From IMG/VR virus record IMGVR_UViG_3300009103_002144, positions 1 through 64,000 of that record: a DNA stretch of 64,000 nucleotides. The stretch is one strand, 5' to 3'. The notes beneath the pieces are model-generated. The model saw only the letters and a program-made list of their open reading frames with translations, made no database searches and was not told the origin of the DNA. Both the position numbers and the translations under genes were made by a program. This stretch comes from a virus. Each line of letters begins with the position of its first letter. Within the stretch, counting starts at the first letter, position 1. Below are positions 10,045 through 64,000 of the stretch, piece by piece.

Positions 10045-10576
10045 AAGAAGAAGCTATAATATAGGCATCTGATATATCATAACAGCTATCAGCGAAGAGT
10101 ACAAGACCCTTTCTTGGTCCTGACTTCATGGTTCGCATAGGCCATTCAAAATTAGCTATTCTTCTTCTTGCGAATTCAAGTACTTGATCTTTCGTACTAG
10201 TCTCAGATTTTCTATCTATCTTTAACCCCACAACCTTCCTTGCGTGATTAACATTGATAAAAGACGGAGACATATCGAAAACGTTATAAGACATTAAGCT
10301 TACCATTCCGTTGAACCTCGCTAAAGTTACAATGGTTTTAGCGCTAGAAAACCCTGGACGAAATGCTTGCAGGTTCTCTTCTATCGCTATATGCTTAATA
10401 GTATAATGCTCTCTTATTTTTTTCAATTGTTGTCTTACACACTCTGCCTTTTGAAATATACAGGGAATCTTTGTAAGCACTATCGCACTAGCATCTACAA
10501 ACTCACCAGTGTTTTCTTCTAAGATACACCAACCTACATTAGAGGTTGATATATCTAACCCAAGGATATAAGACAC
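10028..10576 (-). CDS. RuvC-like Holliday junction resolvase
   Basis: RNase H-fold catalytic pattern ILGLDIS..VGW, IAIEE, DISDAY. Confidence 0.8.
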   Translation of the reverse strand: MSYILGLDISTSNVGWCILEENTGEFVDASAIVLTKIPCIFQKAECVRQQLKKIREHYTIKHIAIEENLQAFRPGFSSAKTIVTLARFNGMVSLMSYNVFDMSPSFINVNHARKVVGLKIDRKSETSTKDQVLEFARRRIANFEWPMRTMKSGPRKGLVLFADSCYDISDAYIIASSCVQNE

Positions 10577-13167
10577 TAAAAATCCAGTTTTACTCTTATG
10601 ACGAACCTGTCGTCGACTCTCTTCACCACAGCTTGAGAGAAATTAGACTTAAGTATTACATTAAGGTTTTCATCTAAAAAGTTAACATTCGTTATGTAAG
10701 TAAAATCTGATAATGCATCTGCAGTCAGGCCGGAGGGGGCAAGACTCTGGAAAGTTGGGTTTACTGATAGGTCGAGGTTTCCTTCTTCGGCTGGAACACT
10801 CATCCTCAAGTTGTAAATATTCTGTTGACCTGTTAGATCGACCTCAAAGCGATCTCTTCCGAAGCGCGGTATAACTGGTGTCTTTACAACTGCTAAGCCC
10901 TCCTCGTACATTAGCGTACCCACAGTCGACCAAGTTGCATGACTGCCTGTAGCGTCGCACCTATAGAGGTTACCTCGGCCATTATCCCGTAATGTAATCT
11001 TTACCCTACCAGCAGATCCAGTCACTAAAGGATCACGAAGATAATAGGTGAAGGGATCGATCTTATTACCGTAGAATAGATTGCTAGCATCGAAAAAAGA
11101 GACTTCATTCGAAGATGGATCGCGGGTCCTATTATAGATCGTCAATATAGCACCCGCAGGGATAGAGGGGTCGTCAGGCGTAGGGCCAGCCAGTGCTGCG
11201 GAAATGGACCCCTCTTTTTCAGCGCCTAAGAGACCTTCCCCAATCGACCCGGTTGGAAGAAGATTATTTAAGCTCACTAAGCTTAACCGCCTTGTCCCTT
11301 GATCATCAACAAACAAGCTTAAAGAATTCGAGGAAGTGACCATCTGCTCAAGAAGATTAAAGTTCTGGCTAAACCTTCCGTTATCACATGGAAGAATCGT
11401 AAGATTTCTCTTCCTAACACTTCCTGACGAAAACAGGAAATAATTACAACTTTGCCAACCCGTATTCGAATCAATGGTGCTTCCTGATAGGGCGTATAAG
11501 CGAGGCCACTCGTTCTTTACAAGCTCTTTCGTAAAATTCTCAAGATTGAGATAGTGACCACCAACGCCAAAAGAAAGTGGAACGTTAAACGGATCGTCAG
11601 TCGAGCCTCTTACTGTTTGAAACGGAGTCTGGAATATATCACGAAGACGTGTATCTTTTACAAAGAATGGTGGAACGTAAAATTCTAGTCCATCTAATGA
11701 AGCAGTATAAAGGTTCTCAATTCCTTCCACGCTGGACGTTAAAATCTCTCCATCATTTCTATACCGGCTATAGATCTTTAACTCATGGAGCTCAGCTTGT
11801 AGTGGGTGATCAAAAGAATATATCTCAGGATTCGGTGGTGCATCGTTTGATTCTCTGTCGACGGTTGGATAAAAATCTTTAATACCGTCAGTATACGCAG
11901 CCTGTGGATTGAAGAATTGTGCTACGTATGAATCACTACTAGCACCCCCCCAATCAGGAGAATCATTATTCGGACCAGTATAATAGTTGCCAACGAATAA
12001 AGCATCAGGTGCGCCACGCTTACCGCCAGTACCACCCCGTGAAGAATCACCTGGACTATCAGCTGAGGTAGGTAATGATAGATTCGTCGCTTGTAACCAG
12101 CTTCCGGATTGGGTTAATCCACTGGCAGTTAAGAACGTATCTTTAATAAGAAATTCACCACGGTTTTCACCGTCAATAAAAAATGATCCAGTAGAATTCT
12201 GGTCATTATGACTCCATCGAACACAACAATAGTGCCAATGGTTCCTCTTTAGAGAATTGTTAGATGATGAATAAATCAGATGTCCAGCTTCAGCGCTGTA
12301 GTCTGATGTCTCTAATGTGATCTCCGAAGGAGGAATATCTGCACTGTGAGACAACTGCAATAGCAGCCTATACCCATCTACATAACCATTTGCGTCTCGT
12401 GAGCTACCCGAAACTAGCGATAGAGCAAAGGAGCTAGACATATGAAAAATTGTTCCAGCCTTAAAATCTCCACCACGAGTAAATGATGTATATCTGGGAT
12501 TGATATAGAATTCAAAAGAAAATGAACCGGTTGGTCGATATGGAGTCAAGCCATTTATCTGATTATCAACAGAAGCATTACCGCTAGCTGACATTGCTGG
12601 ATATATCAATACAGAGCTAGAAGGAATTCGAGCAAGTGCGGGACCCATGGGGACAGTACGTTCCTCCCAATACGTTCTTTCTGGCTCATCTGTATTAAAG
12701 AAATTAAGCGTGTGGTAATTTGTGAAAGCCCAATTACACGTTGACCCGTATTGTGGTCTATAAAATGGGAATAAAACTTCTTGGATGACCCTTTTTCTTA
12801 GAGTATCACTAGTAAATTTAAATGAGGGCTCAAAGCGTAGAATTTCTACTTCTTTTTGTCGCTTGGCAGAAACGCTGGCCGAATTTACAAGTAACATGTA
12901 CTTGTCTATCTCATCATATGATATAGACGCAGTTGATGCGGAAGATGATATCGCTAAAACAGAGAGGCGATACTCTTCCAAGCTATCTGCAAGGGGAGGC
13001 GAATCAGGAGCCGCTTCTTTTGGAACCTCCTTCATACCCATTGCCGCTAATGGGAAAACCTTAACAGCTCCGACAAGCTCACCAGAACCAGAAATAAACT
13101 TCCGCTTTGGTTTGGTGAGTATCTTAAAACTGTCAAAGTAATTTTTGTCAAGCCTAAAAAGGGACAT
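10576..13167 (-). CDS. Virion structural protein with LamG/concanavalin-like domain and C-terminal tail-anchor-like motif
   Basis: FSFEFYINP...GTIFH...WHYCCVRW...FFIDG...LFVGN...ELKIY LamG-like pattern; C-terminus (YITNVNFLDENLNVILKS...IRVKLDF) paralogous to that of 13179..14522. Confidence 0.65.
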   Translation of the reverse strand: MSLFRLDKNYFDSFKILTKPKRKFISGSGELVGAVKVFPLAAMGMKEVPKEAAPDSPPLADSLEEYRLSVLAISSSASTASISYDEIDKYMLLVNSASVSAKRQKEVEILRFEPSFKFTSDTLRKRVIQEVLFPFYRPQYGSTCNWAFTNYHTLNFFNTDEPERTYWEERTVPMGPALARIPSSSVLIYPAMSASGNASVDNQINGLTPYRPTGSFSFEFYINPRYTSFTRGGDFKAGTIFHMSSSFALSLVSGSSRDANGYVDGYRLLLQLSHSADIPPSEITLETSDYSAEAGHLIYSSSNNSLKRNHWHYCCVRWSHNDQNSTGSFFIDGENRGEFLIKDTFLTASGLTQSGSWLQATNLSLPTSADSPGDSSRGGTGGKRGAPDALFVGNYYTGPNNDSPDWGGASSDSYVAQFFNPQAAYTDGIKDFYPTVDRESNDAPPNPEIYSFDHPLQAELHELKIYSRYRNDGEILTSSVEGIENLYTASLDGLEFYVPPFFVKDTRLRDIFQTPFQTVRGSTDDPFNVPLSFGVGGHYLNLENFTKELVKNEWPRLYALSGSTIDSNTGWQSCNYFLFSSGSVRKRNLTILPCDNGRFSQNFNLLEQMVTSSNSLSLFVDDQGTRRLSLVSLNNLLPTGSIGEGLLGAEKEGSISAALAGPTPDDPSIPAGAILTIYNRTRDPSSNEVSFFDASNLFYGNKIDPFTYYLRDPLVTGSAGRVKITLRDNGRGNLYRCDATGSHATWSTVGTLMYEEGLAVVKTPVIPRFGRDRFEVDLTGQQNIYNLRMSVPAEEGNLDLSVNPTFQSLAPSGLTADALSDFTYITNVNFLDENLNVILKSNFSQAVVKRVDDRFVIRVKLDF

Positions 13168-13178
13168 TGGTACCCTCG

Positions 13179-14522
13179 CTAGAAATCCAGCCTTACCCTG
13201 ACGGTCAGATCCTTTTCATCGTTCTTTTCAATCGGTCTAGAAAGCTTTGCGACAGCCAGTAGGTTGTCGTTTACATCGTACAATCCAACAGTCGTTATAA
13301 AACTGAAGGATCGCTGAACGTCTTCCTGGCCCTCGTCAATAACTCTTATTCTGTTATTGGTGTCAGTGTACGTTGGATTTGATGAATAATTGAATTCATC
13401 AGCTGTTGCTCTACAGAATATTAACGTTGAGTTAATGTTCGTATTATTCTGGAACGTCGTAGCAGTTAATGATCCAGAACTAAATCGTGCAGTGGCAAAA
13501 TGCTTGACAATATCATCGATCGATCCTGATGTGAATAAGTCGGGAACAAACTGAGCTTTACTACCTAGATTGGCATCATCAGCGCTCCACCGGGTCATTG
13601 TTCCATTACCATGACCTAAGACCATCTTACCACGAGGTACATTCGCATTCGTCGCACCAGCAGTGGCTGTCATACCGTCGATTGTACCACTTGCATATTG
13701 AGCAGCGTTTATTGCTCTCGCGACGTTAAGAACGATAGTGCCTGCATCATAAAAGACAAGCCCAATCTTCTTTGTCGTATCACTAGAATCAACCAAGTCT
13801 CCGACTTCCCCACCAAAGGTACGTCGACGGTTTGCTGAGGATCCGAAGTCAGTATAAATTTTAACCGAACCAGTAGACGTTTTATTTAAGTTCGGGGATC
13901 CCCACCAGGAGTTGGCAATAGATAGAGCAGGAGCATCGGCGCCAGACTGTGCAGAGGGTAATAGATATTGCTCCTGCCCGCAATCTGGAAACTGCGTTTC
14001 TGAAGCGGATGCATACATCTTAAGAGCGAAAGTTTCTCGCTTTATCTTATCACGAGTGAATAACCTCTTAAAAGAAAGAAAGACCACAGCATCAGCCAAG
14101 TCGGTTGCTGTTGAGCTGCCAAAAGGAGTAGCGAAGGCTGCATCAGCATTCCCCAGCAAGCTGGCCGCGTACTGCTTGTAAATGTCTATTTTTTCTCTCA
14201 TCATTAACGAGCTTGAAGGGAATAGCATCTTTCCATTTGCATCAAGCCCAGAAGAGCAACTAAGCACCGTTGATCCTGAAACCCAAAGACCACAAGTCAT
14301 ATCCAGTATAGGGTTCGCCGTCTGTAGTGAGAAGTCTTGATCATATACTGTTTGGTATAATGAAGAAGTAACACCGGGACCGATACCACCCGTTACCCAC
14401 ATTTGATAGGTCCTTCTTGTTGCAGACCCAGATATATCTTCCTGGATAACATCTACAAGTTGGTTTAATACAGAACGTGATGTCTTAACGTCTGCTGCTG
14501 AAATTTCTTTAAAGGTAGCCAC
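13179..14522 (-). CDS. Virion structural (baseplate/tail-associated) protein
   Basis: C-terminal EFNYSSNPTY...FITTVGLYDVNDNLLAVAKLSRPIEK...VRVRLDF resembles the second half of tail-fibre anchor domains. Confidence 0.65.
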   Translation of the reverse strand: MATFKEISAADVKTSRSVLNQLVDVIQEDISGSATRRTYQMWVTGGIGPGVTSSLYQTVYDQDFSLQTANPILDMTCGLWVSGSTVLSCSSGLDANGKMLFPSSSLMMREKIDIYKQYAASLLGNADAAFATPFGSSTATDLADAVVFLSFKRLFTRDKIKRETFALKMYASASETQFPDCGQEQYLLPSAQSGADAPALSIANSWWGSPNLNKTSTGSVKIYTDFGSSANRRRTFGGEVGDLVDSSDTTKKIGLVFYDAGTIVLNVARAINAAQYASGTIDGMTATAGATNANVPRGKMVLGHGNGTMTRWSADDANLGSKAQFVPDLFTSGSIDDIVKHFATARFSSGSLTATTFQNNTNINSTLIFCRATADEFNYSSNPTYTDTNNRIRVIDEGQEDVQRSFSFITTVGLYDVNDNLLAVAKLSRPIEKNDEKDLTVRVRLDF

Positions 14523-14532
14523 TAATCTTTCC

Positions 14533-15243: not shown

Positions 15244-15267
15244 GTGCTTCCTCCACTCCTCAGGGTT

Positions 15268-15274
15268 TAATTAT
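15268..15274 (-). promoter_or_regulatory. Putative late promoter core (ATAATTA)
   Basis: In the 56-nt intergenic gap upstream of 14533..15243, preceded by a T-tract; overlaps a TATAAT. Confidence 0.5.
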
Positions 15275-15299
15275 ACATCTCTAAAAACGTAGTAAACAT

Positions 15300-17096
15300 T
15301 CACTCACTTATATCTTGCTCTAATGTAGTTTTTTGCTCTACTGGCGTCTCTACTAAAATTGAATCATCAATCGTAACTTCTAACTTCTGGTCAAGCAACC
15401 TGTCAGTATTTATGAACTGAAATACGTACTTTGACAAGGGGTCTATAGATGTAGTGCAAAAAGCTGGAATTACTTCCCTTCCATTTTTAAGAAGTGTATA
15501 AGCTTCTGGATTAAAGTAAATCTGGCATGCTTTGTGAGAGCTGTCTTTCATCGTATCAACAAAGAAGTTTTGCTTTAAGAACCAATTTGGATACTGCTTA
15601 GGGGCCCCAGCATACGACATAAATTCTTTTCTTATCTTATTCTTAGATTTATCAAAACTCACCTTTATTTGGGTAGAGTATTTCGAACTTAACTGCCGGG
15701 CATCAACTGCTACAAGAGCATAGATATACGTCGTCGTCTTATTGAATTCACTATCTATATAAAAGGTCGGCATATTCTGAACCGCTTTATCTACACTTGG
15801 GTCAATATGCTCTCTGGGATTGGATCTTACCACAGAGTCATCAAAGTCGAAATGCTTGATCAGTGTAAACGGATCATGAATAGACTTTCTCCGGAAAACC
15901 TGAATATACTTCACATCACGCTGAGGATTGACTGGTGGTGCCCAAGTAATAACCAGATTCTCTTTGTCATATTCAAAATAAAAATTAATATCGGTCGGTG
16001 GATCCGGGCGGCGGTCTTCTTTGGCGGTTATCGAAGTCATCGGAGCTGGCTTCGAAGAAACTAGAAATGTCTTTATAAATGTATTTCCTTCAACATCTGT
16101 AGCAGGTACCCTAAATTTGGCGATTGTATATCCAGTATACTCATATGTCTGACCATACGCAATCTGTGAATCATACACTGTTCTTACACGTTGTCCTAGA
16201 GCAATGATTGGCGGCATTGGATATCTAACCCCCTTATATACTCTCTTTTTTTGAATCACAAAACCAACAACATCTGCTTCTGCAACAAAGTCTTCAGTTT
16301 CAACCTCTTCTAAATCCACATAAGGAATATCAAAAAGATATTCATCATTGCTTAATAGCGCGGGATTATCAGAAATTGCTGTCGATTTTCTTAGTGAAGC
16401 CATATAGTCTTCTACTATCTGGGCCATTCCCAGAGAGGTTCCTCTCTGGGCTGATGTTCGTCGCGCATACGGAGCATACGTCGAATTTAGCATCATGAGA
16501 GTTGAAGACCTTGACTCCTCCCCAAAAAAATCAGTATACGAAGACTCATCGGCCTCCTCATTTAGCGATGGTGGTAATAAACTCTCGAGTAAATTCGAGT
16601 CGACATTACTGGTTTCTGCAATTGTTGTCAAAAGCTCTAAGGGAGTTGCTTCATCAGTCCCCAAAGAATTAAGCCGCATTCTAAGCAGATTTTCTATATT
16701 GGTGGGTAACTGAAGATTTCCAGCGCATAATGCAGTAAAATTCAAACCGGCTGCCTCATCTTCGGTAAAGATCTTTCCATTCCGCAAAGCCCATTGAATT
16801 TCATCCACTGATGACTTTATAGACGAGTTCTTCGTTGCCAGCATACTCTTCTTTGAATCCTTCAATCCAAAGGTTAATGTTGCATAGCGAGGCTGTCTGG
16901 AATTGAGATTCGTAATGTCAACGGTTCCTTTTCGCTTAAATCTAGATGAAAGGTTTCCGTTTACAGCATCATTACCAGACTCATCAACAGTTTCATCTGC
17001 AACGAAAAAGTTATATCTAAATACTGCTTTCACATTCTGCATTTCAGGAACATCAAAAATAGGAAGCGGCTGACTTGGGATTGATTCTACACTCAT
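15300..17096 (-). CDS. Putative virion protein with fibronectin type III-like domains
   Basis: PDPPTDINF...LVITWAPP...YIQVFRRK...FYIDSEF...YIYALVAVD FN3-like pattern; second YGQTYEY motif. Confidence 0.55.
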   Translation of the reverse strand: MSVESIPSQPLPIFDVPEMQNVKAVFRYNFFVADETVDESGNDAVNGNLSSRFKRKGTVDITNLNSRQPRYATLTFGLKDSKKSMLATKNSSIKSSVDEIQWALRNGKIFTEDEAAGLNFTALCAGNLQLPTNIENLLRMRLNSLGTDEATPLELLTTIAETSNVDSNLLESLLPPSLNEEADESSYTDFFGEESRSSTLMMLNSTYAPYARRTSAQRGTSLGMAQIVEDYMASLRKSTAISDNPALLSNDEYLFDIPYVDLEEVETEDFVAEADVVGFVIQKKRVYKGVRYPMPPIIALGQRVRTVYDSQIAYGQTYEYTGYTIAKFRVPATDVEGNTFIKTFLVSSKPAPMTSITAKEDRRPDPPTDINFYFEYDKENLVITWAPPVNPQRDVKYIQVFRRKSIHDPFTLIKHFDFDDSVVRSNPREHIDPSVDKAVQNMPTFYIDSEFNKTTTYIYALVAVDARQLSSKYSTQIKVSFDKSKNKIRKEFMSYAGAPKQYPNWFLKQNFFVDTMKDSSHKACQIYFNPEAYTLLKNGREVIPAFCTTSIDPLSKYVFQFINTDRLLDQKLEVTIDDSILVETPVEQKTTLEQDISE

Positions 17097-20000: not shown

Positions 20001-20866
20001 TCTCCTTCCCATTTCACAAGTTTAGAACCAGCCTCGAACTCTCTTGTCGATAATTCAAGTAAGCGTGGCGTACAAGATGTTAATGAATAGCAGTAGTCTC
20101 TTATCAGTGTATATAAAACCTCTGTATTCGAAGCCGAAGAAACAGACGCGGAATCAAGCTCAAATGCTGACAATGCCTCTTCATACATTTCTATATTGGT
20201 TGCATCAAGTGAATCAAGAAAAGATTGTTGTGCCGCCAAATTTGAAACATGAGCAGCGAGCCAGTCCAATTCTCCTATTAATTCTTCTGATGTATCGATA
20301 TCTAAAAGGTTCTCTACTCTTAAAGCACGAGCAGCCCTTTTTGCCTTAATCGTATTACCGACAGCTGTCACATTTGATTCTGAATCAAAAACAGGCTTGA
20401 AGTCTATCAACGCAAGAATAACTGGTCGCATTGCGGGATTGATCTCTATTGAATTGGCTTCTTTCTCAGCCCTCTTAGTATCAGCCCTTTTCGATGATGC
20501 CGCATCACCAGCCTGGTCTGAGGTGGGTGAAGTCTTTTTCTGTCCCTTTTGCGTTTGGTATTTTAAGAGGGCCTGCTTTCTTTTTTCTTGACGAATATTC
20601 GCTACTCGTAGTTGTTCCATCTTTTGTACAGATGAACCAGTCTTTGACTTTTGCTTATTTCTTGTTTTTGCGCTTCTTCCCGACCGTCTGCGGTCTTTTC
20701 GACTTTTGACTTTCACACCGGGTGTGGATGTATTTCTTGCTCGCTCTTTTTCTTTATTATACGTCGTGGCTTGATTGCCTAATAGAAGCTCAATTAATGA
20801 TACCACTTCTTCTTTTTCTACGTTTACTAGAGAATCTAGCTTCATATCCGAAATTAAGTCTGGCAT
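17093..20866 (-). CDS. Large acidic hypothetical protein
   Basis: 1257 aa ORF, basic low-complexity N-terminus then D/E/S-rich body; no recognisable catalytic motif. Confidence 0.7.
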   Translation of the reverse strand: MPDLISDMKLDSLVNVEKEEVVSLIELLLGNQATTYNKEKERARNTSTPGVKVKSRKDRRRSGRSAKTRNKQKSKTGSSVQKMEQLRVANIRQEKRKQALLKYQTQKGQKKTSPTSDQAGDAASSKRADTKRAEKEANSIEINPAMRPVILALIDFKPVFDSESNVTAVGNTIKAKRAARALRVENLLDIDTSEELIGELDWLAAHVSNLAAQQSFLDSLDATNIEMYEEALSAFELDSASVSSASNTEVLYTLIRDYCYSLTSCTPRLLELSTREFEAGSKLVKWEGDPNYVRRSLSFSTAIGGLYDRLPEDSEIGLRQLLATISRELLLSYNKQQNNIDDADAEIYPKGQGKAYQGYGFCSYLNVYPGTSKFQPLTKGVSESDAFGTFNMNGLLYPSVVNGQKVAVYPFEKSELITSSRYKSTDSAPDEVKKIYAAQEPEAGLAPYSEISSRWTDAKTTIEDLLDTEMLGLDGSPGSEVLEVICRNIVLKCLEALPESSASSAGVSDALQIAWLCAAGRDSEAWQWLFLYLAFLQDQVSGVAITGEQTNLAALSWVVRNDSTLIQLIGKPSSSTSKTQFFSVPESTISVTPKPDDWSNPTTIDPMSVKQKTELAEGESSENSSLQSYFDLTWEEVCELCAMGMRAKLSTTTNSTEDELSDKTTAKVDDFKEALMALSTTSDSIFLSLLELLNDAVFLFGNNCIDDLELTNYSQFPANRLHGFIIQAAAKTASFYIDDLTSTSGAMSSVFESSASDIIASSVSKVSSGGGLKIMGPRMAASWSSSAESGTSIAGLNMTFQYAGVADRKSALETFLDSEEQDATLLEEQSSALSRTFSALDENYEFISGFIESLDSYFSNVRDTFSAIVDVIVADIDEETEGTQTLIDRIREGLPLSTDMCKMLLNYIRVYDSSDSTYQDIRTRDKALVCSNVAFMSSILQEEDFCEPDKLKYMVVGIPAGCLDMTKEDPVDLEEVDREITTPSRNNFSVSIEKVDLTRPELEYEDKEYLFSRNLFINQIDDSTEGEIIVNFDSIDKDFSVTEQAESGLSSETYSDEQVNNLKNDFALKLYSDLFLDLDFFEDAYPNGSSQRRDVLTGSISLPSLDGVDKDANAFLSGSNIAFDTDDRKIEGFTFYSEGSEMLNMDLFKDLDPVAFSVYSYLNSYGTVANASAKKDSLKYGTIFERVVAIPFDPTSFEVEISTEDETSAETNAKNEKLTEAETEVGIGLETSQGVEMANYRVYVTIPDTGSEETTSE

Positions 20867-56476: not shown

Positions 56477-57202
56477 CTACAATAAGTCTACTATCCTGTC
56501 ATCGTGAACGATTTCTTTGTAATGTTTTCTTATTTTTGACATTGAAACAGAGAGTTGTTTTGAAGTTAACCCTGATATTTCTCTAACATACACATAGATC
56601 GCTCGCTTATTCAAGAAGTCAAGATTATCGATATTCTCAAAAACGGTGCGAATCGCTTTTGCGCAAAGCACCTCGTTTGGTTTTTTAACACGACCATCTA
56701 TTTCATCAATTACGTCCATTATTCTATCACGAAGTTCAGCTTTTTCCAAAATGTCCTGTGGTGACGGAGCAACTTTGCTATTTGCAATTTTGGCTTTATC
56801 TCTAGAATTTAATATTGACAGATCGCTCATCGATACATGACGCTGATTATTTTTCTTAGCATTCCGACACCTGATTATCAACCAATTCTTTGCTACAACA
56901 TTGAAATATGAAAACGCTTTGGTACCCCTGGATGGATCCCACTTATGAATTGTCTCATATAAAAATGCGACACAGTCACCTTTCATGGATGCAGTACTTT
57001 CATAAGGGGAATTAAAGCCGTATACGTAAATAAGACTTTCCGACAATTGCTCAAAAGCAGGCATGATCTCGTGACGATATATCTTCTCTTTTTCAGACGA
57101 ATCTTCCGACTGTTGATAAGCTTCTATTGATGCCTGTGTATTTTTGTTAAAATACATGTTGCGCTTTTTGCCAGGATTTCTCCGGATCTTTCTTTTGGCC
57201 AT
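56477..57202 (-). CDS. Phage sigma factor for late transcription (gp55-like)
   Basis: Sigma region 2-like segment DCVAFLYETIHKWDPSRGTKAFSYFNVVAKNWLI; N-terminal MYFNK.TQ..I..Y; directly upstream of structural genes. Confidence 0.75.
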   Translation of the reverse strand: MAKRKIRRNPGKKRNMYFNKNTQASIEAYQQSEDSSEKEKIYRHEIMPAFEQLSESLIYVYGFNSPYESTASMKGDCVAFLYETIHKWDPSRGTKAFSYFNVVAKNWLIIRCRNAKKNNQRHVSMSDLSILNSRDKAKIANSKVAPSPQDILEKAELRDRIMDVIDEIDGRVKKPNEVLCAKAIRTVFENIDNLDFLNKRAIYVYVREISGLTSKQLSVSMSKIRKHYKEIVHDDRIVDLL

Positions 57203-57511
57203 TTATTGTTCCTCTTCTACTTCTTCAATGATGCCACCAGTCAAAAGATTTGCAACAGCCAAAATTTGGTCTCTTGACCTTTTGATATCTTTATGAACAG
57301 TCCTTATTTGAGGACTGTCATCAAAAAGCGGAATCTCCAAAACTTTAGATATAGATTCATATCTTTCATCAAGAACATCCAGACACTCCTCGACAGCATC
57401 CTCTACCTTCAAAATGGTAACACCAAACTTATATACATAAAATGCGAGTACGCATGTACTCGCAAAAAACAAGCAAGATGATATCGCTAAAAATGTCTCA
57501 AGACCTGTCAA
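57203..57511 (-). CDS. Small membrane-anchored protein
   Basis: Hydrophobic N-terminal helix (FLAISSCLFFASTCVLAFYVY) then a soluble helical domain. Confidence 0.65.
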   Translation of the reverse strand: MTGLETFLAISSCLFFASTCVLAFYVYKFGVTILKVEDAVEECLDVLDERYESISKVLEIPLFDDSPQIRTVHKDIKRSRDQILAVANLLTGGIIEEVEEEQ

Positions 57512-58676
57512 TTAAGCTCCCAAGCTTTTCATCATAAATCGAAAAAATATTCTTTAAAGAATATTTTTCTGTTATCGTCGGAGCAGCGGTTTGTGCCCAG
57601 TCAGTGGGGGGCCCAGGAGACTTCCTGAACTTGGTTAATCGAGACTTAAAATGAACCTCTTTAACATTTGCCCAATGGGCGTCTTGCATAAAAATTTGGT
57701 TATCAATCTTCTGAGGTGGGACAGGCACAAGATCATAATCTAAAGAAAGAAACTTTACTCCCTTCATAAAATCTAAATGACCCGACCAATTGGTGGCAAT
57801 AACAGGGAGACCACATACAGCGGCATCTAATATCGGTAAGCCCCATCCTTCTCCCCGAGTTGGCGCAACTAAAGCCTTTACACTTTCATGCTGATATAAC
57901 GATGAAATTTCGCTTTCATCCATCAAGCCGTGAGCAAGATAAAACCGCGGGTAAGGACCTGAACGTACTTGACTTATCAATTCTCTTAAGACCATCGTAG
58001 ACTGCTCACGATCTTTAACGCTAAGTCGTCCAGTGTTCGTCTTTACAATAATTCCAACATCCGGATCATTTGAAAATAGCTCTGACAACCACCTTATATT
58101 ATAAAATGTATTCTTTCGGTCAGTTTCAGGATCTTGTCCGGTAATCTGCCCGAATATAAGAAGGTTGAACTTAGTTGGTATCTGATCCATGTCAGAAGAT
58201 AGTTTCTCCGCCCTGGGTGTGTGACTTAAATTACATGTAAATGCTTCAGGAATTGAAGAAATCTTATCAGGAGATAATCCCGAGTCTATGAAAATTTTTC
58301 TTGTAAACTCACTTGGGACAACTATGTGGTCCATTCTATTACAAGCATCAATCCACGCAGGATTGCAGATCGTCGTTTCTACTCCTGCAGTTATTCCCAC
58401 ATTAATTCTCGCCAAAGAAGGATCCCATTCATTCGGTAGCTGAATCTGTAGAGATATATCAACAGGAGTATTTTCTGGGAACGGTGTTGTAGCCTGCATT
58501 ATACGACCTACTAAACCACTCTGGAGATCTGGATTGACGTAATACGGATTACAACCCCAGGGTAAGACGTGCGTATTAATTCTCCAACCCTTTGATTCAG
58601 CCCACTGAAAAACTTGTCGTGAGTGCTCTCCATAACCGCTAATTGAAAGAAGCGGACCCCTCAAAATAACATTCAT
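57498..58676 (-). CDS. Glycosyltransferase (GT-B fold, GT4-like)
   Basis: SGYGEHSR N-terminal loop; DRKN; RGEGWGLPILDAAVCGLPVIATNWSGHLDF. Confidence 0.88.
   Translation of the reverse strand: MNVILRGPLLSISGYGEHSRQVFQWAESKGWRINTHVLPWGCNPYYVNPDLQSGLVGRIMQATTPFPENTPVDISLQIQLPNEWDPSLARINVGITAGVETTICNPAWIDACNRMDHIVVPSEFTRKIFIDSGLSPDKISSIPEAFTCNLSHTPRAEKLSSDMDQIPTKFNLLIFGQITGQDPETDRKNTFYNIRWLSELFSNDPDVGIIVKTNTGRLSVKDREQSTMVLRELISQVRSGPYPRFYLAHGLMDESEISSLYQHESVKALVAPTRGEGWGLPILDAAVCGLPVIATNWSGHLDFMKGVKFLSLDYDLVPVPPQKIDNQIFMQDAHWANVKEVHFKSRLTKFRKSPGPPTDWAQTAAPTITEKYSLKNIFSIYDEKLGSLIDRS
57543..57568. repeat. Perfect 26-bp palindrome
   Basis: AAAAATATTCTTT|AAAGAATATTTTT is its own reverse complement. 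Confidence 0.85.
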
Positions 58677-58680: not shown

Positions 58681-59934
58681 TCATAACTCCCTTATCTCGA
58701 ATCTATTTACCATTCTTTTGCCGCTCTGCCAATCTTCAACAAGCTTTATTAGCGAATTGTGCCACAGATTGACCGTAGTCTCTAAAGCGAATTCGCTTGC
58801 CACATAATCACTCACTTTCTTACTAAGCGCTTCCTTTTCCTCTTTCGAGAGAGAATAAATCTTAAAAATCGCTTCAGCAGTGTCTTCTACAGAAACATAA
58901 TCTTCGTAAATATATGGAACATTTTGTGAGCCCACCAGCGCCTTTAGCGAAATATCTAAAGCAACACCATTTTCAGACCCGTCTCTATGATCTATAACCT
59001 GTCTAGTTAATCCACCAGTTTTTGCAGCAACAATTGGGGTTCCAGTCTGCATTGCCTCAAGCGTTCCAAGACCAAAACCTTCTGCAAATGAGATATTTAT
59101 GCAACAATCAGAAACATTATGAAGAATGTTCATCTGCTCGAACTCTATTCTTTCCCTTGAAAATGTGACTCGGTCTAGAATCCCGAACATTTTTGCAACC
59201 TCAACCAAGTTTGGTCCTTCTGCATCAAATGGGTCAGTATGCATTAGCAGCATTACTTCTTCGCGATTATCGAGTCTATCCAAAAACAATTTCCAGGCCC
59301 ATAATACATCTGCTGGGCGCTTCCTTTTTGCATTCCTGTTAACCCAAAAAGCGGTAAAGCAATTCTTGTTGTGAAACCCTAGAATCTTTTCTTTCCACTG
59401 AGCTATCTGATTTTCGGGGAGTTGGTAAAATACCTCTTTTGGTAAAGCATGCGGAATGAAGTTGGTCCGTTCCGGAAAGTTCTCTTTAACAAGTCCATAC
59501 GTCATATATGAGTGACAATTTATTAGGTCAGTTGACGCATAGTAAGAGCTGTTAAACTCTGGTGTTGGCTCATTGTCCCACACATGCCAATAAGCGATTG
59601 GGCATATTTGGTGAATTTCTTCTTCCATTTCCCAAAGCCACGTAAAAAATCGAGGATCAGTAAAGATAAACAATATATCGGGCTTTTCGGTGGCTAACGC
59701 GAGACGAAGCATATCAGGATTACCAAAGCCATCAATCGGCTTGATAATAAAGTCTGGATTTACTTGCACAACGTTATAATCATTATGCTTTAAGGCAGCT
59801 CCAAACTGCCTAAAGCTCCAGCAGCCCTTTGCAATAAGGCCCTCGATTAAAAATCTTGATTGACACCCAACCCCCGACGTGCTAAGCGCATGATCGGAAA
59901 GCATCAATATCTTATACTTCTTTTGTTCTGTCAT
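58681..59934 (-). CDS. Glycosyltransferase (GT-B fold, GT4-like)
   Basis: KILMLSDH....SGVG; NRNAKRKR; AEGFGLGTLEAMQTGTPIVAAKTGGL. Confidence 0.9.
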   Translation of the reverse strand: MTEQKKYKILMLSDHALSTSGVGCQSRFLIEGLIAKGCWSFRQFGAALKHNDYNVVQVNPDFIIKPIDGFGNPDMLRLALATEKPDILFIFTDPRFFTWLWEMEEEIHQICPIAYWHVWDNEPTPEFNSSYYASTDLINCHSYMTYGLVKENFPERTNFIPHALPKEVFYQLPENQIAQWKEKILGFHNKNCFTAFWVNRNAKRKRPADVLWAWKLFLDRLDNREEVMLLMHTDPFDAEGPNLVEVAKMFGILDRVTFSRERIEFEQMNILHNVSDCCINISFAEGFGLGTLEAMQTGTPIVAAKTGGLTRQVIDHRDGSENGVALDISLKALVGSQNVPYIYEDYVSVEDTAEAIFKIYSLSKEEKEALSKKVSDYVASEFALETTVNLWHNSLIKLVEDWQSGKRMVNRFEIREL

Positions 59935-59984
59935 CTAATCCTCATCTACGTGGATAATCATATCACAGATTATCATAAAGTATA

Positions 59985-60860
59985 TCAGCCTGGACAATGA
60001 GATGTATTCTTAAATTCGCAAAATCTACACGACTGTCTATTTTTAAGATAAATGCCCCTCCGTACGGTCTTTACCATACTTCGTAAAATCGACAGGGCAT
60101 TTTCTTCTGCCTTCGGACCAACGGAGACCTTAACTAATTCACAAGAGTCACCGGGCGTACCGCCACGCTTAAGTAATACAAACCCACACTTCACTTCTTT
60201 TATGTCTTTACCATTCTTGTTTTTCCAAAATGACTTGTATAAAGCGATCTGAGCCCAAGTTAATATATCTCTTTTCTTACTTGCGAACCACCCCTTGTCC
60301 CCAGCTGTTTTCCAATCAATAACGTAATAGTATTCTTTGCCACGAATTTTGACTTTAAGTAATGCATCGATGAAACCCTTAAAGAAGATATCATAGCCAG
60401 GAAAATATTCGTATAATTGCTCTTCAGCTGATATTACCTCATAATCGCCGAATTCTTCTGTCAAAAATAACGGCAGATCTGTCAAGGACGTATCGGCCCA
60501 CTTCAACCATGACCCTAGATAATCATGCCCTTTCGGTTTCCAACCCTGCGACTTTCGATGATCCGCTTGAGCTTGAATCCATTCCTCCGAATCAAAGCCG
60601 TGAATATCCCACTCACTTTTTATCTTCTCAAGGACTGCCTGTTTATCCATTACACCCGTCTTAAGGAAATTTTCAATACCATCATGAAGAGCAGAACCGT
60701 ACGACAGGTAGGGTGATGGCTCATCTTTTGCAACTTTATCGATATATACAAGACGATGGTGATAGGGACACTCTTTCCATAATCGAATTTCCGAAAATGA
60801 AACGTGCGGTTTTCCTGTTGGGAAACTAATATCTTCTGGACTTGGAATATTCATATTCAC
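59985..60860 (-). CDS. PD-(D/E)XK exonuclease, Cas4/RecB-like
   Basis: SFSEI..WKECPY; GFIDAL; VIDWKT; QIALY; C-terminal [12 protein letters not shown] (1+3 Cys layout). Confidence 0.85.
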
Positions 60861-61894
60861 CCCTTAAACTTCATCTTCATCCCAGGAATCCATGCTTCTG
60901 GTTCCGGAGATCTACCTAATACCTGTAGCTCGGTTGTCGCGACTTTGAAATCATGAGCGTGCATTAAGCTGGCAAGATTAGAAAACTTTGTCTTAGGTTC
61001 CCACCCAAGCTTTTCTTTTGCTTTTGTTGGGTCTCCTAAAAGTATGGGCACCTCGTGAGGGCGGAATAGTCTCTCATCTATCTCTACATTTTCGTCAATT
61101 GATAGACCAGCAATGGAGAATACTTCTTCTAGCCACTCTTGAACCGAATGTGTCTCTCCGGTTGCTATGACATAATCATCTGGTTTTTTTTGTTGGAGCA
61201 TTAGCCACATCGCCTCTACATAATCACCTGCAAATCCCCAGTCTCTCTTTGCGGAAAGGTTCCCAAGAAATAACTTCTCTTGCAGCCCAAGCTTTATTCT
61301 AGCAGCAGCAAGTGTGATCTTTCGTGTGACAAACGTTTCACCCCGACGAGGAGATTCGTGATTGAACAAAATGCCGCTTGAAATGTGCATGTCATAAGAC
61401 TCACGATAATTTCTACACAGGTTATGAGCAAATACTTTAGCACAAGCATAAGGACTAGCAGGCATCAAAATTGTATTTTCGTCTTGAGGATAATTGGGGT
61501 TATCACCGTACATCTCTGATGAGGATGCTTGATAAATCCTTATATCTTTGTTAACAAAACGAACAGCTTCAAGAATCCTTAGCGTACCCATGGCTATAGT
61601 ATCAACTGTTTCTATCGGTACATCAAATGAAACTCGAACATGGGACTGCGCTGCGAGGTTATAAAACTCTTCTGGCTCATACTGCTCAAGCAACCTATAG
61701 AGGGTTGAGGGGTCATGTAAAGAATAATATTCAAGACAAAACATGGGGTTGTTATAAATGTGATCCAAACGGTCAGTAGAGATCAAGCTTGTTCTTCTCT
61801 TAAGACCAACTACTCGATACCCTTTGCTCAATAGCAACTCAGCAAGATACGATCCATCTTGGCCAGTTATTCCTGTTACTAAAGCAGTTTTCAT
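60857..61894 (-). CDS. gmd: GDP-mannose 4,6-dehydratase
   Basis: [73 protein letters not shown]. Confidence 0.96.
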
Positions 61895-62820
61895 TCCATT
61901 CCTCTTACGTTAGGATAATTCTCGATGAACCATTTACACGTCTTTTCTAGCCCATCCTCAAATGTAGTATATTGAGATCGATCCCATCCAGTTGACACAA
62001 GCTTATCATTACTGCTTGGCTTCCTAAATTGGCCGGATGGCTTTGACTTATCCCAAAAAACAGGACCATCATATTCTAGATTTTGGCAAACGAGCTCAAC
62101 TACAGACGCAATACTTCTTTCCTCTGTTATACCAATATTAACAGGATCGGGATCATTGTACTCGTCTAGCAGGTAGAGTAAGATCTTCGAGAGATCCGGG
62201 GCATAGGTGAACTCCCTAAGAGCTGATCCATCGCTCCAAAAAGCAGGGGTGTTCCCAGTCTTTTTCGCTTCCCAAACTTTTCTGATTATTGCGGGAATAA
62301 CATGCCCATTTTCTAAATCGAAGTTATCATGAGGACCATACAGATTGTTCGGCACAGCGCAGATGAAGTTACACCCATATTGCTGACGAAGTGCTCTAGA
62401 TTGTACATCCAGCATTCTCTTTGAGTACGCATAGCCAAAGTTGCTAGAGTGCGGGGCACCGTTATGAATTTGGTCTTCAGTTAGCGGGTAATTTACTTGG
62501 TCCGGATAAACGCAGGTAGACAAAAGCGACACAACTTTTGTTACTCCGAATTTTTTTGAAGCCTGGAGTACGTTTGTATTCATTCTAATATTATCAGAAA
62601 AGAAGTCTGCTACAAAGTCAGTATTTCCTTTGACACCCCCAACTCTTGCCGCGAGATGGATTACAGCATCAGGAGTGTAATTCATTATCATTACTTGCGT
62701 ATCATGCCACGAGCGAAGATCGTGATGTTTAGAGCTCATAAGAATAATCTCATGATCTGTCTCCACATCTTGAAATCCGGAACCGACCATTCCGGTCCCA
62801 CCTGTAATCAATACTCTCAT
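61891..62820 (-). CDS. fcl: GDP-L-fucose synthase (epimerase/reductase)
   Basis: [52 protein letters not shown]; coupled to gmd. Confidence 0.92.
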
Positions 62821-63476
62821 ATTTCCATAACCTCGTAATAATGACCAATCAAAAACTTATTACCCTTGCTTAATGACTTTAGTTTATGAGAAGAATTATA
62901 ATGCTCAGGGAGCATCACCCTAAAATCAAAGCTCACCCGCGTAACTCCGGTTCTATTTGGGAGATTTCCATGGATACATTGATTACCATTAAATTTTACA
63001 ACCTGACCTGGTTCAAGCTCAAACTGTCTAAAATCCATTTTTCCTGGTCTACTCTCGGCGATCGTCGTATTACTTTCGAACATGCGGGTTAGCGCAAGAA
63101 TAAAATTCATTTCACCAGACGGATGATTATAGTCACCATCTTTGTGCCAGCCACCCACCGCAACATTATCTGGTAAATGAACACGAAATGATGGCCATTT
63201 TTGATATATTAACTTGTCATTGGCACCCACGATGGGCGCTACAAAATCTTTTATAAAAGCCTTATAAGAACTTAAAAATTCTGGCCAGCCTGAGCGCATC
63301 TTATCATAAAAAACTCTATGAAACCTTGTGTCTGAATCGGATCCGGGCTCACTGAAAAACTCATATTGCTTATCTAAATCTAAGTGAAGATTATTCAGGT
63401 CTTTTCTTCCAAAGAGATCTTGAAATAACGAGACAAACTTATACTTTTCTATATCATAATCATAATACTTTTCCAT
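62817..63476 (-). CDS. 2OG-Fe(II) oxygenase-like protein (StrG-like)
   Basis: YQKWPSFRVHLP, WHKD (HxD), distal CIHGN, TRVSFDFRV (RxS). ATG at 63476 with GAGG SD preferred to the track start at 63497. Confidence 0.7.
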   Translation of the reverse strand: MEKYYDYDIEKYKFVSLFQDLFGRKDLNNLHLDLDKQYEFFSEPGSDSDTRFHRVFYDKMRSGWPEFLSSYKAFIKDFVAPIVGANDKLIYQKWPSFRVHLPDNVAVGGWHKDGDYNHPSGEMNFILALTRMFESNTTIAESRPGKMDFRQFELEPGQVVKFNGNQCIHGNLPNRTGVTRVSFDFRVMLPEHYNSSHKLKSLSKGNKFLIGHYYEVMEI

Positions 63477-64000
63477 GTATTTCCTCAATAGAAGCAATTA
63501 CGTCTCGTATCCCTTCTTCTAATGTTAATTTTGGCTTCCAGTATTGTAGGATATATTCATCTGGAGGGACATCAACAAGCTTTTGCACTGTATCCTCTTT
63601 GGTACCAGGAATGACAGGAACATTTCCGCATATTGAAGAGACAATGTTCGCTATCTCTCTTATACTCGTCCACTCAAAATTTGTCACATCCAAAGACTGA
63701 CCTGCAAAACGTGATGGGTCTTTACTTATCATGTACAGCGCCCTTGAGCAGTCTTCAGCATGCAAAAATTGTCTGGTCTCCTCTCCGTTTGTAAGCATCT
63801 CTATCTTACCTTCTTGTTGGGCCTTCAAAGCGAAGTCTGTTATTACGTGCGCTTTTTGTAAATCTCTTTCAGGACCATATACATTCCAAAATCGGGTGAT
63901 CGTTCCACCCATTGAAATTGTAAGTCGTTCACCAATAAATTTCAAACCACCATACGTTGAGTGCTTCATGTCTGCCATTTGACTTGAAGCAAAAAGGAAC
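63460..64000 (-). CDS. NAD-dependent epimerase/dehydratase (extended SDR), 5' end outside window
   Basis: Frame open to the window edge (FLFASSQMADM...); catalytic YGGLK (YxxxK), RFWNVYGP, RQFLHAEDC. Confidence 0.82.
   Translation of the reverse strand, partial: FLFASSQMADMKHSTYGGLKFIGERLTISMGGTITRFWNVYGPERDLQKAHVITDFALKAQQEGKIEMLTNGEETRQFLHAEDCSRALYMISKDPSRFAGQSLDVTNFEWTSIREIANIVSSICGNVPVIPGTKEDTVQKLVDVPPDEYILQYWKPKLTLEEGIRDVIASIEEIHGKVL

What the first reader, a model, noticed from the sequence alone, without database searches (positions are those of the whole stretch)
10576..64000. Candidate phage-encoded, sequon-directed virion O-glycosylation system ([S/T]-G-S motif plus GDP-fucose pathway and two GTs)
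Seen: putative surface virion proteins are studded with S-G-S/T-G-S (also S-A-S/T-A-S). By eye there are about 12 [ST]GS in the 1225-aa gp7-like protein, about 12 in the 730-aa fibre, and many in the 863-, 447-, 518-, 670-, 2161- and 2615-aa proteins, in unrelated sequence contexts and folds. Portal and gp6 show none that I could find, and terminase, gp5-like and the 1049-aa Mre11-Rad50 about one each. The same transcription direction begins with gmd, fcl, an epimerase, an oxygenase and two GT4 glycosyltransferases directly upstream of the late sigma factor and baseplate genes. Known: Gmd plus Fcl make GDP-L-fucose; chloroviruses use such enzymes for capsid glycans, and some mycobacteriophages glycosylate virion proteins with their own GTs. 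Inference: [S/T]-[G/A]-S is an acceptor sequon convergently placed on exposed proteins, giving a glycan coat for stability, adhesion or defence evasion.
Basis: partly seen in the sequence, partly recalled or inferred. Interest (0 to 1): 0.9.

Follow-up and report, generated by a model that had tools for sequence, protein, structure and literature searches.

The report
Ser-Gly-Ser tag on phage tail proteins
The outer baseplate and fibre proteins of this uncultured T4-like phage carry the short motif Ser/Thr-Gly/Ala-Ser about four times more often than chance, and across related phages the motif is kept or lost together with a conserved pair of phage sugar-transferase genes, so it is probably a tag where the phage attaches sugars to its own particle, although no sugar has been shown.

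Summary
In 12 large virion proteins of this 109-kb far-T4-like phage contig, [ST]GS occurs 123 times against 32.6±5.6 in shuffles. TGS and SGS are the two most over-represented of all 8000 tripeptides. The signal is at protein level, lies mostly outside repeats and is narrow: φ-[S/T]-[G/A]-S-φ, with TGT, TGN and TGD not enriched.

The same motif tops the lists in Mel-JY01 and RM378 and is strongly enriched in immuto. All four lineages share a conserved nuclease-GT4a-GT4b gene triad beside variable sugar genes. T4 and cyanophage S-SSM7 lack the pair and show no excess. One sub-clade, nested among the window's relatives, lost the GT4 pair and has 0 motifs (3.4 expected). LR756508 lacks GT4b and shows only about 2.5-fold.

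In the modelled jellyroll protein the motif sits at β-turns and strand starts.

My best reading (about 0.5) is an acceptor tag for cytoplasmic virion O-glycosylation, primed by the GT4 pair and extended by a membrane-free ~22-kb glycan island. No chemistry is shown, and a lineage-specific structural turn remains a serious rival.

Earlier notes of this scan report analogous but different Ser/Thr motifs beside glycosyltransferases in other phage lineages.

The parts
10576..13167 (-). 863-aa virion protein; 10 [ST]GS (1.3 expected) plus 6 [ST]AS
   Evidence: Weak LamG_3 hit. Sites are conserved in 9 homologues of at least 57% identity. The AF2 model failed.
13179..14522 (-). 447-aa virion protein; 5 [ST]GS (0.7 expected)
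   Evidence: Its N-terminus matches RM378 gene at 116276.
17093..20866 (-). 1257-aa protein; 4 [ST]GS (1.4 expected) plus 5 [ST]AS
25048..27339 (-). 763-aa Gly/Ala-rich fibre-like protein; 4 [ST]GS (1.9 expected), a weak excess
27726..29918 (-). 730-aa fibre; 12 [ST]GS (2.8 expected), 11 of them inside internal or shared repeats
29906..36391 (-). 2161-aa fibre/baseplate protein; 27 [ST]GS (8.7 expected)
36415..44262 (-). 2615-aa protein; 13 [ST]GS (4.0 expected)
44263..46275 (-). 670-aa protein with a LamG_3 jellyroll; 4 [ST]GS (1.4 expected)
46275..49952 (-). 1225-aa baseplate protein in the gp7 position, with two ConA/LamG-like jellyrolls; 12 [ST]GS (1.5 expected), 11 motif columns conserved among relatives
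49952..51508 (-). 518-aa baseplate protein; 4 [ST]GS (0.8 expected) plus 5 [ST]AS, 6 motif columns conserved
51515..53359 (-). gp6-like baseplate wedge protein; 0 motifs. Internal control and phylogenetic marker.
56477..57202 (-). gp55-like late sigma factor, directly downstream of the GT4 pair
   Evidence: PHROG 234, E 1.5e-5.
57498..58676 (-). GT4b, the second GT-B glycosyltransferase of the conserved pair. The E-x7-E/D motif is present (D in this phage, E in most relatives).
58681..59934 (-). GT4a, a highly conserved virus-specific GT4 glycosyltransferase with an invariant E285-x7-E293
59985..60860 (-). PD-(D/E)XK nuclease, first gene of the conserved nuclease-GT4a-GT4b triad
   Evidence: Pfam E 5.8e-20. 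Synteny in Mel-JY01 and immuto, both annotated PD-(D/E)XK nuclease; in RM378 the gene at this position is annotated 'similar to DNA polymerase I' and its homology was not tested.
60857..61894 (-). GDP-mannose 4,6-dehydratase (Gmd)
   Evidence: TIGR01472, 446 bits, above the 415 cut-off.
61891..62820 (-). GDP-L-fucose synthase-like SDR (Fcl-like, below the curated cut-off)
   Evidence: NF047922, 238 bits against a cut-off of 500.
62817..63497 (-). 226-aa protein, possibly a 2OG-Fe(II) oxygenase of carbohydrate clusters (weak)
   Evidence: TIGR04324, E 6e-4. No Pfam hit.
63460..64000 (-). 3' part of an SDR epimerase gene that continues to G000 64326. The glycan island continues to G000 79809.

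Best explanation
φ-[S/T]-[G/A]-S-φ is an acceptor tag for phage-encoded, cytoplasmic O-glycosylation of the outer virion proteins (baseplate rim, jellyroll-domain proteins and fibres).

Proposed mechanism: the two soluble retaining GT-B enzymes GT4a and GT4b, made just before the late sigma and baseplate genes, recognise the motif where it is displayed at a β-turn or at the start of a β-strand. They put the first sugar or sugars on a Ser/Thr hydroxyl. The neighbouring, lineage-variable island supplies donors and extends and tailors the glycan directly on the protein, with no lipid carrier or export step. In this phage the island is about 22 kb: Gmd and an Fcl-like enzyme, a GmhA/HddA/HAD heptose branch, further epimerases, about nine more GT2/GT4/GT6 enzymes and four methyltransferases.

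Shown here: the motif excess, its narrow specificity, its restriction to peripheral virion proteins, its extra conservation, its co-distribution and co-loss with the GT4 pair, the absence of membrane components, and its location at turns in one model.

Inferred: that any sugar is attached, that the GT4 pair is the priming enzyme, which residue is modified, and what the coat is for.
For: 1. Strength and specificity.
- 123 vs 32.6±5.6 in shuffles; TGS and SGS rank 1 and 2 of 8000 tripeptides.
- Only x = S or T is enriched in xGS. TGS is 59/14, but TGT is 11/12, TGN 8/8 and TGD 6/8.
- Only G or A is enriched in the middle position.

2. Protein level, and not explained by repeats.

3. Blind replication in three cultured, deeply diverged relatives with hosts in different phyla.
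- Mel-JY01: SGS 29/3.6 and TGS 16/2.3, ranks 1 and 2.
- RM378: TGS 10/1.4, rank 1.
- immuto: TGS 25/5.2 and SGS 28/6.5.
- All show the same lack of TGT/TGN/TGD excess and the same hydrophobic -1 and +3 flanks.

4. All four lineages carry orthologous GT4a-GT4b directly after a nuclease-position gene (PD-(D/E)XK in the window, Mel-JY01 and immuto), beside variable sugar genes.

5. Negative controls without the pair: T4 7/8.4 and S-SSM7 30/21.9.

6. Co-loss.
- Clade B is nested inside the window's clade on the gp6 tree (96/94 support).
- In L049 the nuclease is followed directly by the p102 and sigma genes, with the GT4 pair cleanly absent; L051 has other ORFs there.
- The clade B homologues have 0 motifs against 3.4 expected.
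- The extra conservation of the motif Ser (65% vs 40% for other Ser in clade A) disappears there (17% vs 21%).
- LR756508 has GT4a but no GT4b anywhere in its 484 kb, and only about 6/2.4.

7. The target is unlikely to be DNA or a lipid-linked polymer.
- immuto DNA contains canonical dA, dC and dT plus fdPreQ1 (10.1101/2023.04.13.536721).
- There is no multi-TM protein in the island or the contig.

8. GT4a is virus-specific and more conserved than gp6: 492 IMG/VR relatives, the best 80 at 60% identity or more. Both GTs keep the EX7E signature.

9. In the AF2 model of the 1225-aa protein, the sites fall in two-residue hairpin turns (226-228, 262-264) or just before strands (309, 714, 869, 950) of ConA/LamG-like jellyrolls.
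Against: - No chemical evidence of glycosylation exists for any of these phages.
- The sites are positionally conserved and sit at β-turns, where G-S is a natural type II' turn. Non-conserved ('sporadic') sites in the 1225-aa family are at chance level (2.0 vs 1.7). A structural signature of these protein families therefore fits much of the data.
- The co-distribution rests on few independent events: one full loss and one partial loss.
- Clade B is also strongly AT-shifted (26-29% GC) and its contigs are fragments.
- Non-virion proteins do not avoid the motif (17 vs 11.3).
- GT4a's closest solved and curated relatives act on small molecules (sucrose-phosphate synthase Tll1590, MshA, BshA).
- Capsid and sheath are not enriched in RM378, so the result would not be a whole-particle coat.
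Confidence: 0.5

Rival explanations
1. The motif is a lineage-specific structural signature: a preferred polar β-turn (hydrophobic strand, S/T, G, S, hydrophobic strand) of the jellyroll and fibre domains used by far-T4 phages. It has no chemical modification, and the GT4 pair and glycan island do something else.
For: - Sites lie at hairpin turns and strand starts.
- Two recurrent sites map to canonical LamG positions: the 'F-x-G-x-I-D-E' last strand and the first strand.
- The excess is carried by positionally conserved columns.
- In clade B the equivalent turns are often N-rich, and N can replace G in turns.
Against: - T4 and S-SSM7, with comparable folds and composition, show no excess.
- Generic turn words (TGT, TGN, TGD, SGD) are not enriched.
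- In clade B the third-position Ser is replaced by I, Y, L, K, E and Q, while neighbouring invariant Gly residues stay. That Ser is therefore not structurally required.
- The motif recurs in non-homologous proteins and in fibres that differ between lineages.
Confidence: 0.25
2. The glycan island and the GT4 pair remodel a host envelope polysaccharide (LPS, capsule or EPS) during infection. This is the usual reading of such clusters in cyanomyoviruses and jumbo phages. On this view the motif is unrelated.
For: - This is the published interpretation of similar clusters (PMC7824862; PMC12801897).
- S-SSM7 carries heptose and sugar genes inside its structural module without any motif excess.
- GT4 enzymes commonly act on lipid-linked or small acceptors.
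Against: - There is no priming phosphoglycosyl transferase, flippase, polymerase or any multi-TM protein.
- The GT4 pair is a conserved core gene pair across hosts of three phyla with unrelated envelopes.
- GT4a-like clusters are 87-100% viral.
- This reading does not explain the co-loss of the pair and the motif.
Confidence: 0.12
3. The motif is read by another factor (a kinase, another transferase, or an assembly chaperone) whose gene also travels with this lineage. Or virion proteins are glycosylated, but at other residues.
For: - The data show that something lineage-specific constrains the motif, not what that is.
- Only part of each relative's genome could be compared.
- The contig encodes a PrkA-type kinase module further on (earlier scan note; not tested here).
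Against: Among the genes seen, the GT4 pair is the only hydroxyl-modifying candidate shown to be shared by all motif-positive lineages and missing in both motif-poor ones.
Confidence: 0.13

Closest known systems
Mycobacteriophage virion glycosylation (Che8-type; Freeman et al. 2023, Cell Host Microbe; known here only through citing papers)
   Same: Phage-encoded glycosyltransferases acting in the cytoplasm on the phage's own structural proteins.
   Different: There the glycans sit at the C-termini of the capsid and tail-tube subunits of siphoviruses. Here the candidate sites are internal β-turn tripeptides in baseplate and fibre proteins of myoviruses, with a different GT set, a defined short motif and a much larger glycan locus. 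There the chemistry is proven; here it is not.
Chlorovirus (PBCV-1 type) and giant-virus capsid/fibril glycosylation
   Same: Virus-encoded Gmd and a fucose-synthase-type enzyme, many soluble GTs and methyltransferases, and glycan built without the host's membrane machinery. GT4a's second-best solved relative is the chlorovirus GT B736L (3oy2, E 1.9e-7).
   Different: From my own knowledge: those viruses are eukaryotic, and their glycans are N-linked on the major capsid protein at atypical sites or on fibrils. Here the candidates are bacteriophage tail proteins, O-linkage is presumed and the capsid is not enriched.
GtfA/GtfB O-GlcNAc priming of streptococcal serine-rich-repeat adhesins, and the S-A-S-S-A-S O-glucosylation motif of Lactobacillus buchneri S-layer protein (recalled from my own knowledge, not read here)
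   Same: Two adjacent GT4-fold proteins; cytoplasmic O-glycosylation of Ser in S-[A/G]-S-like contexts, followed by extension by further GTs.
   Different: GtfA and GtfB do not appear among GT4a/GT4b sequence hits. GT4b keeps the EX7E signature, so it looks catalytic and not a chaperone-type partner. The acceptors are isolated turns, not long Ser-rich repeats.
'LPS / cell-wall modification' gene clusters of T4-like cyanomyoviruses and jumbo phages (PMC7824862; PMC12801897)
   Same: Hypervariable islands of nucleotide-sugar enzymes and GTs, often inside or next to the structural module. The same heptose-pathway genes occur in S-SSM7.
   Different: Those clusters are read as host-surface remodelling. 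The GT4a/GT4b pair is absent from them, and S-SSM7 has no motif excess.

Membership tests
Phage virion glycosylation by phage-encoded GTs (mycobacteriophage type) | The phage encodes glycosyltransferases and sugar-nucleotide enzymes without export machinery | tested here: met
   Pfam and NCBIfam hits; no multi-TM proteins.
Phage virion glycosylation by phage-encoded GTs (mycobacteriophage type) | Glycans demonstrated on virion proteins by mass spectrometry or staining | not testable with these tools
   This needs purified virions. RM378, immuto and Mel-JY01 are in culture.
Phage virion glycosylation by phage-encoded GTs (mycobacteriophage type) | Acceptor sites at the C-termini of capsid and tail-tube subunits | tested here: not met
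   Candidate sites are internal and lie in baseplate and fibre proteins. RM378 capsid is 1/0.3 and sheath 1/0.6.
GtfA/GtfB-type two-protein O-GlcNAc transferase | Two adjacent GT-B (GT4-fold) genes | tested here: met
   Both hit Glycos_transf_1 and GT4 models. The pair is conserved in four lineages.
GtfA/GtfB-type two-protein O-GlcNAc transferase | Sequence membership in the GtfA/GtfB families | tested here: not met
   No GtfA or GtfB among the PDB or NCBIfam hits.
GtfA/GtfB-type two-protein O-GlcNAc transferase | The second subunit is non-catalytic and forms a heterodimer with the first | tested here: inconclusive
   GT4b keeps E-x7-E (D in this phage), which suggests activity.
T4-type DNA glucosylation | Glycosylated bases in the virion DNA | tested here: not met
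   Published LC-MS of immuto DNA, a phage with orthologous GT4a and GT4b, shows dA, dC, dT and fdPreQ1 only. This was not examined for this phage itself.
Lipid-carrier polysaccharide (O-antigen/capsule) locus | Priming phosphoglycosyl transferase, flippase or ABC exporter, and polymerase | tested here: not met
   No ORF in the 109-kb contig has two or more TM-like segments, and there are no such Pfam hits. Use of host components cannot be excluded.
Bacteroidota general O-glycosylation (sequon D-[S/T]-[A/I/L/V/M/T]) | That sequon, with a periplasmic location of the acceptors | tested here: not met
   The motif is different (D at -1 is 0 vs 7.7 expected). It also occurs in phages of Microcystis and Rhodothermus.
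ConA/LamG-like jellyroll domain proteins (structural context of many sites) | Jellyroll fold | tested here: met
   Weak LamG_3 hits. The AF2 model matches LamG, pentraxin and carbohydrate-binding jellyrolls at E down to 3e-9.

The most novel reading that the evidence does not exclude
A whole, globally distributed lineage of aquatic far-T4-like phages, including RM378, immuto and Mel-JY01, uses a conserved two-enzyme primer (GT4a and GT4b) and a defined sequon, φ-[S/T]-[G/A]-S-φ. With these it hangs hypervariable, phage-made glycans on its baseplate rim and fibres. The variable sugar islands of these phages would then be the viral counterpart of O-antigen loci, and their long-unknown acceptor would be the virion itself.
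Probability: 0.45. Interest if true: 0.85.

Novelty: new variant of a known kind. Interest (0 to 1): 0.75.

Why it matters
Large sugar-gene islands in marine and freshwater phages are usually assumed to remodel the host surface, and their real acceptor is unknown. A short motif that is kept and lost together with a conserved phage GT pair would name that acceptor. It would also extend virion glycosylation from a few mycobacteriophages to a major aquatic myovirus lineage and give a predictive sequon for phage glycoproteins. Three motif-positive phages are in culture, so the question can be tested directly by mass spectrometry. Glycan-coated fibres would bear on host range, particle stability, grazing and adsorption in nature.

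Tried and rejected
- DNA-level motif: rejected. Codons at the motif mirror background usage.
- Repeat artefact: rejected. 101 of 123 sites lie outside paralogous HSPs.
- Generic property of phage fibres: rejected by T4 and S-SSM7.
- DNA glycosylation by the GT4 pair: made unlikely by published immuto nucleoside data.
- PHROGs gave no hits for nearly all large structural proteins.
- The AF2 model of the 863-aa protein, built from 10 close homologues, failed (mean pLDDT 27) and was not used.
- The AF2 model of the 1225-aa protein is only moderate (pLDDT 60). Only its secondary structure and its well-predicted N-terminal jellyroll were used. Solvent exposure could not be computed because no coordinates are returned.
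- Alignment of the Mel-JY01 and immuto homologues to the 1225-aa family was too uncertain to date individual sites.
- Tetrasphaera phage TJE1 has a distant GT4a-like gene (21.6% identity) and no motif excess. I treat it as uninformative.
- megablast of the region against phage records: no match.
- Freeman et al. 2023 is not held in the library. No paper on Mel-JY01 was found.

Full report
**What the window is.** All genes lie on the minus strand of the first 64 kb of a single 109,192-bp viral contig. The portal, terminase, prohead protease, gp6- and gp25-like baseplate proteins and a gp55-like late sigma factor mark it as a distant T4-like myovirus. The closest isolates are Microcystis phage Mel-JY01 (portal 42% identity), Flavobacterium phage immuto (38%) and Rhodothermus phage RM378 (33%). 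No nucleotide-level match exists among 50,697 phage records.

- I pooled the ten enriched proteins of the window with two further fibre-like proteins beyond it (G000 79991-89283), giving 14,345 aa.
- In that set TGS (59 vs 14.3 expected) and SGS (64 vs 18.3) are the two most over-represented of all tripeptides, at z 11.8 and 10.7. The next credible words reach about 6-7.
- Per-protein shuffles give 32.6±5.6, maximum 53 of 2000, against 123 observed.
- The remaining 74 ORFs show no real excess.
- Codon choice at the motif is as varied as elsewhere, so selection acts on the protein.
- Only 22 of 123 sites lie in BLAST-detectable repeats, mostly in the 730-aa fibre.

**The motif is narrow.**
- In xGS only x = S or T is enriched.
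- After TG only S is enriched: TGS 59/14, against TGT 11/12, TGN 8/8 and TGD 6/8.
- In the middle position only G is strongly enriched, with A at about 2.3-fold.
- Hydrophobic residues are over-represented at -3 to -1 and directly after the motif.
- The working definition is therefore φ-[S/T]-[G/A]-S-φ.

**The sugar genes.**
- The window holds Gmd (a true equivalog), an Fcl-like SDR (below the curated cut-off) and a weakly supported 2OG oxygenase.
- The locus continues beyond the window to G000 79809. That part adds another GT4, about seven GT2, one GT6, four methyltransferases and two more epimerases.
- It also adds a heptose branch: a GmhA isomerase, an HddA-like kinase and a HAD phosphatase.
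- No ORF in the contig has two or more membrane-like segments.
- So there is no flippase, polymerase or lipid-carrier priming enzyme.

**Relatives: retention.**
- Searching IMG/VR with the gp6-like protein gave 55 loci.
- Every locus of clade A (gp6 43-91% identical) with enough flank has the same gene order. That order is nuclease, GT4a, GT4b, a small ORF, sigma, the gp5-position protein, gp6, then the 518-aa and 1225-aa homologues.
- Those homologues keep the excess: 4-7 vs about 0.8, and 7-11 vs about 1.5.
- The content of the island upstream varies. Gmd and Fcl are present in only some relatives.
- GT4a has 492 relatives in IMG/VR, the best 80 at 60% identity or more. It is therefore better conserved than gp6.
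- Its nearest protein clusters are 87-100% viral.
- Among isolate genomes, GT4a occurs only in Mel-JY01, immuto, RM378, the metagenomic LR756508 and, very distantly, TJE1.
- In Mel-JY01 and immuto a PD-(D/E)XK nuclease is followed by GT4a and GT4b and then variable GT2, methyltransferase or aminotransferase genes.
- In RM378, GT4a and a profile-confirmed GT4b follow a gene annotated 'similar to DNA polymerase I'. I did not test its homology to the nuclease.

**Blind replication.** None of these three phages has GTs next to its baseplate genes. Their baseplate and fibre proteins nevertheless show the same motif with the same specificity.
- Mel-JY01: SGS 29/3.6 and TGS 16/2.3, ranks 1 and 2.
- RM378 (genes at 64.8-76 kb): TGS 10/1.4, rank 1, and SGS 8/1.6.
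- immuto: TGS 25/5.2, SGS 28/6.5, SAS 19/5.7 and TAS 16/4.4.
- SGT, TGT, TGN and TGD are never enriched.
- The hydrophobic -1 and +3 flanks recur in all three.
- Portal, terminase, capsid and sheath of RM378 are not enriched.

**Negative controls.** T4 outer baseplate and fibres give 7 vs 8.4. The huge jellyroll-rich baseplate and fibre proteins of cyanophage S-SSM7 give 30 vs 21.9, with TGS 8 vs 12.5. S-SSM7 has sugar genes in its structural module but no GT4a or GT4b.

**Co-loss in clade B.**
- Clade B (L049-L053) is nested inside clade A on the gp6 tree, with 96/94 support.
- In L049 the nuclease gene is followed directly by the small ORF and sigma, so the GT4 pair is cleanly missing. In L051 four unrelated ORFs take its place.
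- No GT1- or GT2-family domain occurs on the three clade B contigs searched. These contigs are fragments.
- The baseplate homologues of L049 and L051-L053 have 0 motifs against 3.4 expected from composition. About 17 would be expected at the clade-A level of enrichment.
- In 13 distant clade-A homologues of the 1225-aa protein, the motif's third-position Ser is kept in 65% of cells, against 40% for other Ser. The first-position S/T is kept in 78%, against 45%.
- In clade B these figures fall to 17% vs 21% and 25% vs 26%. The extra constraint is gone.
- The replacements there include I, Y, L, K, E and Q, while neighbouring invariant glycines persist.

**A second, partial loss in LR756508.** LR756508 keeps the nuclease and GT4a but has no GT4b anywhere in its 484 kb. 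It shows only about 6 vs 2.4.

**Caveats on the co-loss.**
- These are few independent events.
- Clade B is also strongly AT-shifted, at 26-29% GC.
- The basal clade-B contig L050 has a modest excess (6/1.6), but its upstream region is not on the contig.

**Structure.**
- The AF2 model of residues 1-1200 of the 1225-aa protein is moderate (pLDDT 60). Residues 70-350 are good (75-91).
- It contains two ConA/LamG/pentraxin-like jellyrolls, in line with weak LamG_3 hits.
- Sites 226-228 and 262-264 are two-residue hairpin turns.
- Sites 309, 714, 869 and 950 immediately precede strands. Site 309 is the LamG 'F-x-G-x-I-D-E' strand, which reads L-S-G-S-I-D-E in clade A and F-x-G-[L/Y]-I-D-E in clade B.
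- Turns are accessible, so this location fits a tag. It equally fits a structural role.
- Within the 1225-aa family the excess is carried by 11 conserved columns, while sporadic sites are at chance level (2.0 vs 1.7). In the 518-aa family sporadic sites are about twofold.

**What the GTs act on.**
- DNA is unlikely. Published LC-MS of immuto DNA found canonical dA, dC and dT, with fdPreQ1 replacing dG.
- A lipid-linked polymer is unsupported, because no membrane components are present.
- Both GT4a and GT4b keep the EX7E signature of retaining GT4 enzymes. The window's GT4b has D at the last position.
- Their nearest solved or curated relatives are generic GT4 enzymes (Tll1590, the chlorovirus GT B736L, MshA, BshA) and do not reveal the acceptor.

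**Verdict.**
- The enrichment is real, narrow, restricted to peripheral virion proteins and reproduced in four deep lineages with hosts in three phyla.
- It is absent from unrelated myoviruses and is lost twice together with the GT4 pair or half of it.
- The most economical reading is that φ-[S/T]-[G/A]-S-φ is read by the phage's own GT4 enzymes as an O-glycosylation site, and that the variable island builds the glycan.
- I put this at about 0.5, because no chemistry exists and a lineage-specific turn signature explains part of the data.
- The literature I could read knows phage virion glycosylation only from mycobacteriophages. It interprets such islands as host-surface remodelling.
- Earlier notes of this scan describe analogous but different Ser/Thr motifs beside GTs in other phage lineages. 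They also describe a conserved GT pair flanking hypervariable sugar islands whose acceptor was unknown.
- I used those notes as leads only.

Noticed in passing
G000 64001-79809 (L001), beyond the window: The glycan island continues for about 16 kb beyond the window. It holds a GT6 (Pfam E 4.6e-27), about seven GT2, a third GT4, four methyltransferases, a GalE-like epimerase and a GmhA/HddA-like/HAD heptose branch. No nucleotidyltransferase was recognised.
   Followed up: partly
G000 79991-89283 (L002): Two further giant fibre-like proteins (1349 and 1747 aa) lie upstream of the island and carry the motif (8/3.7 and 20/4.6). The island is therefore flanked on both sides by motif-rich virion genes.
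   Followed up: partly
L049:4253-6288 and L051:711-6214: A low-GC sub-clade (26-29% GC) keeps the nuclease, the small ORF and sigma in order, but the two GT4 genes are cleanly absent (L049) or replaced by four unrelated ORFs (L051).
   Followed up: yes
L070:5442-6933 (Mel-JY01, record 83441-84932): The GT4a orthologue of Mel-JY01 is annotated as two adjacent CDSs matching the N- and C-terminal halves. It may be a split gene, a frameshift or a sequencing error.
   Followed up: no
L153:6256-9314 (LR756508): This 484-kb metagenomic phage keeps the nuclease and GT4a but has no GT4b anywhere in the record. Its baseplate proteins show only a weak motif excess.
   Followed up: partly
L158:26336-37848 (S-SSM7, record about 102-114 kb): The cyanomyovirus S-SSM7 also has sugar genes between its fibre and neck genes: carbamoyltransferase, Nol, phosphoheptose isomerase, a sugar kinase, nucleotidyltransferases and an epimerase. 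It has no [ST]GS excess.
   Followed up: partly
window 5899-9048: A single 1049-aa ORF matches an SbcD/Mre11-like nuclease in its N-terminal third and SbcC/Rad50 in the rest. It looks like a fused Mre11-Rad50.
   Followed up: no
window 27726-29918, 29906-36391; G000 84040-89283: The 730-aa fibre shares repeat modules with the 2161-aa and 1747-aa proteins, for example φ-SGS-L-T-x-L-x-D-G and A-G-S-N-φ-T-I. This suggests fibre-module shuffling within the genome.
   Followed up: partly
window 54225-56096: The 623-aa protein in the gp5 position has no Pfam or PHROG hit at all, although it is conserved in synteny in all relatives.
   Followed up: no
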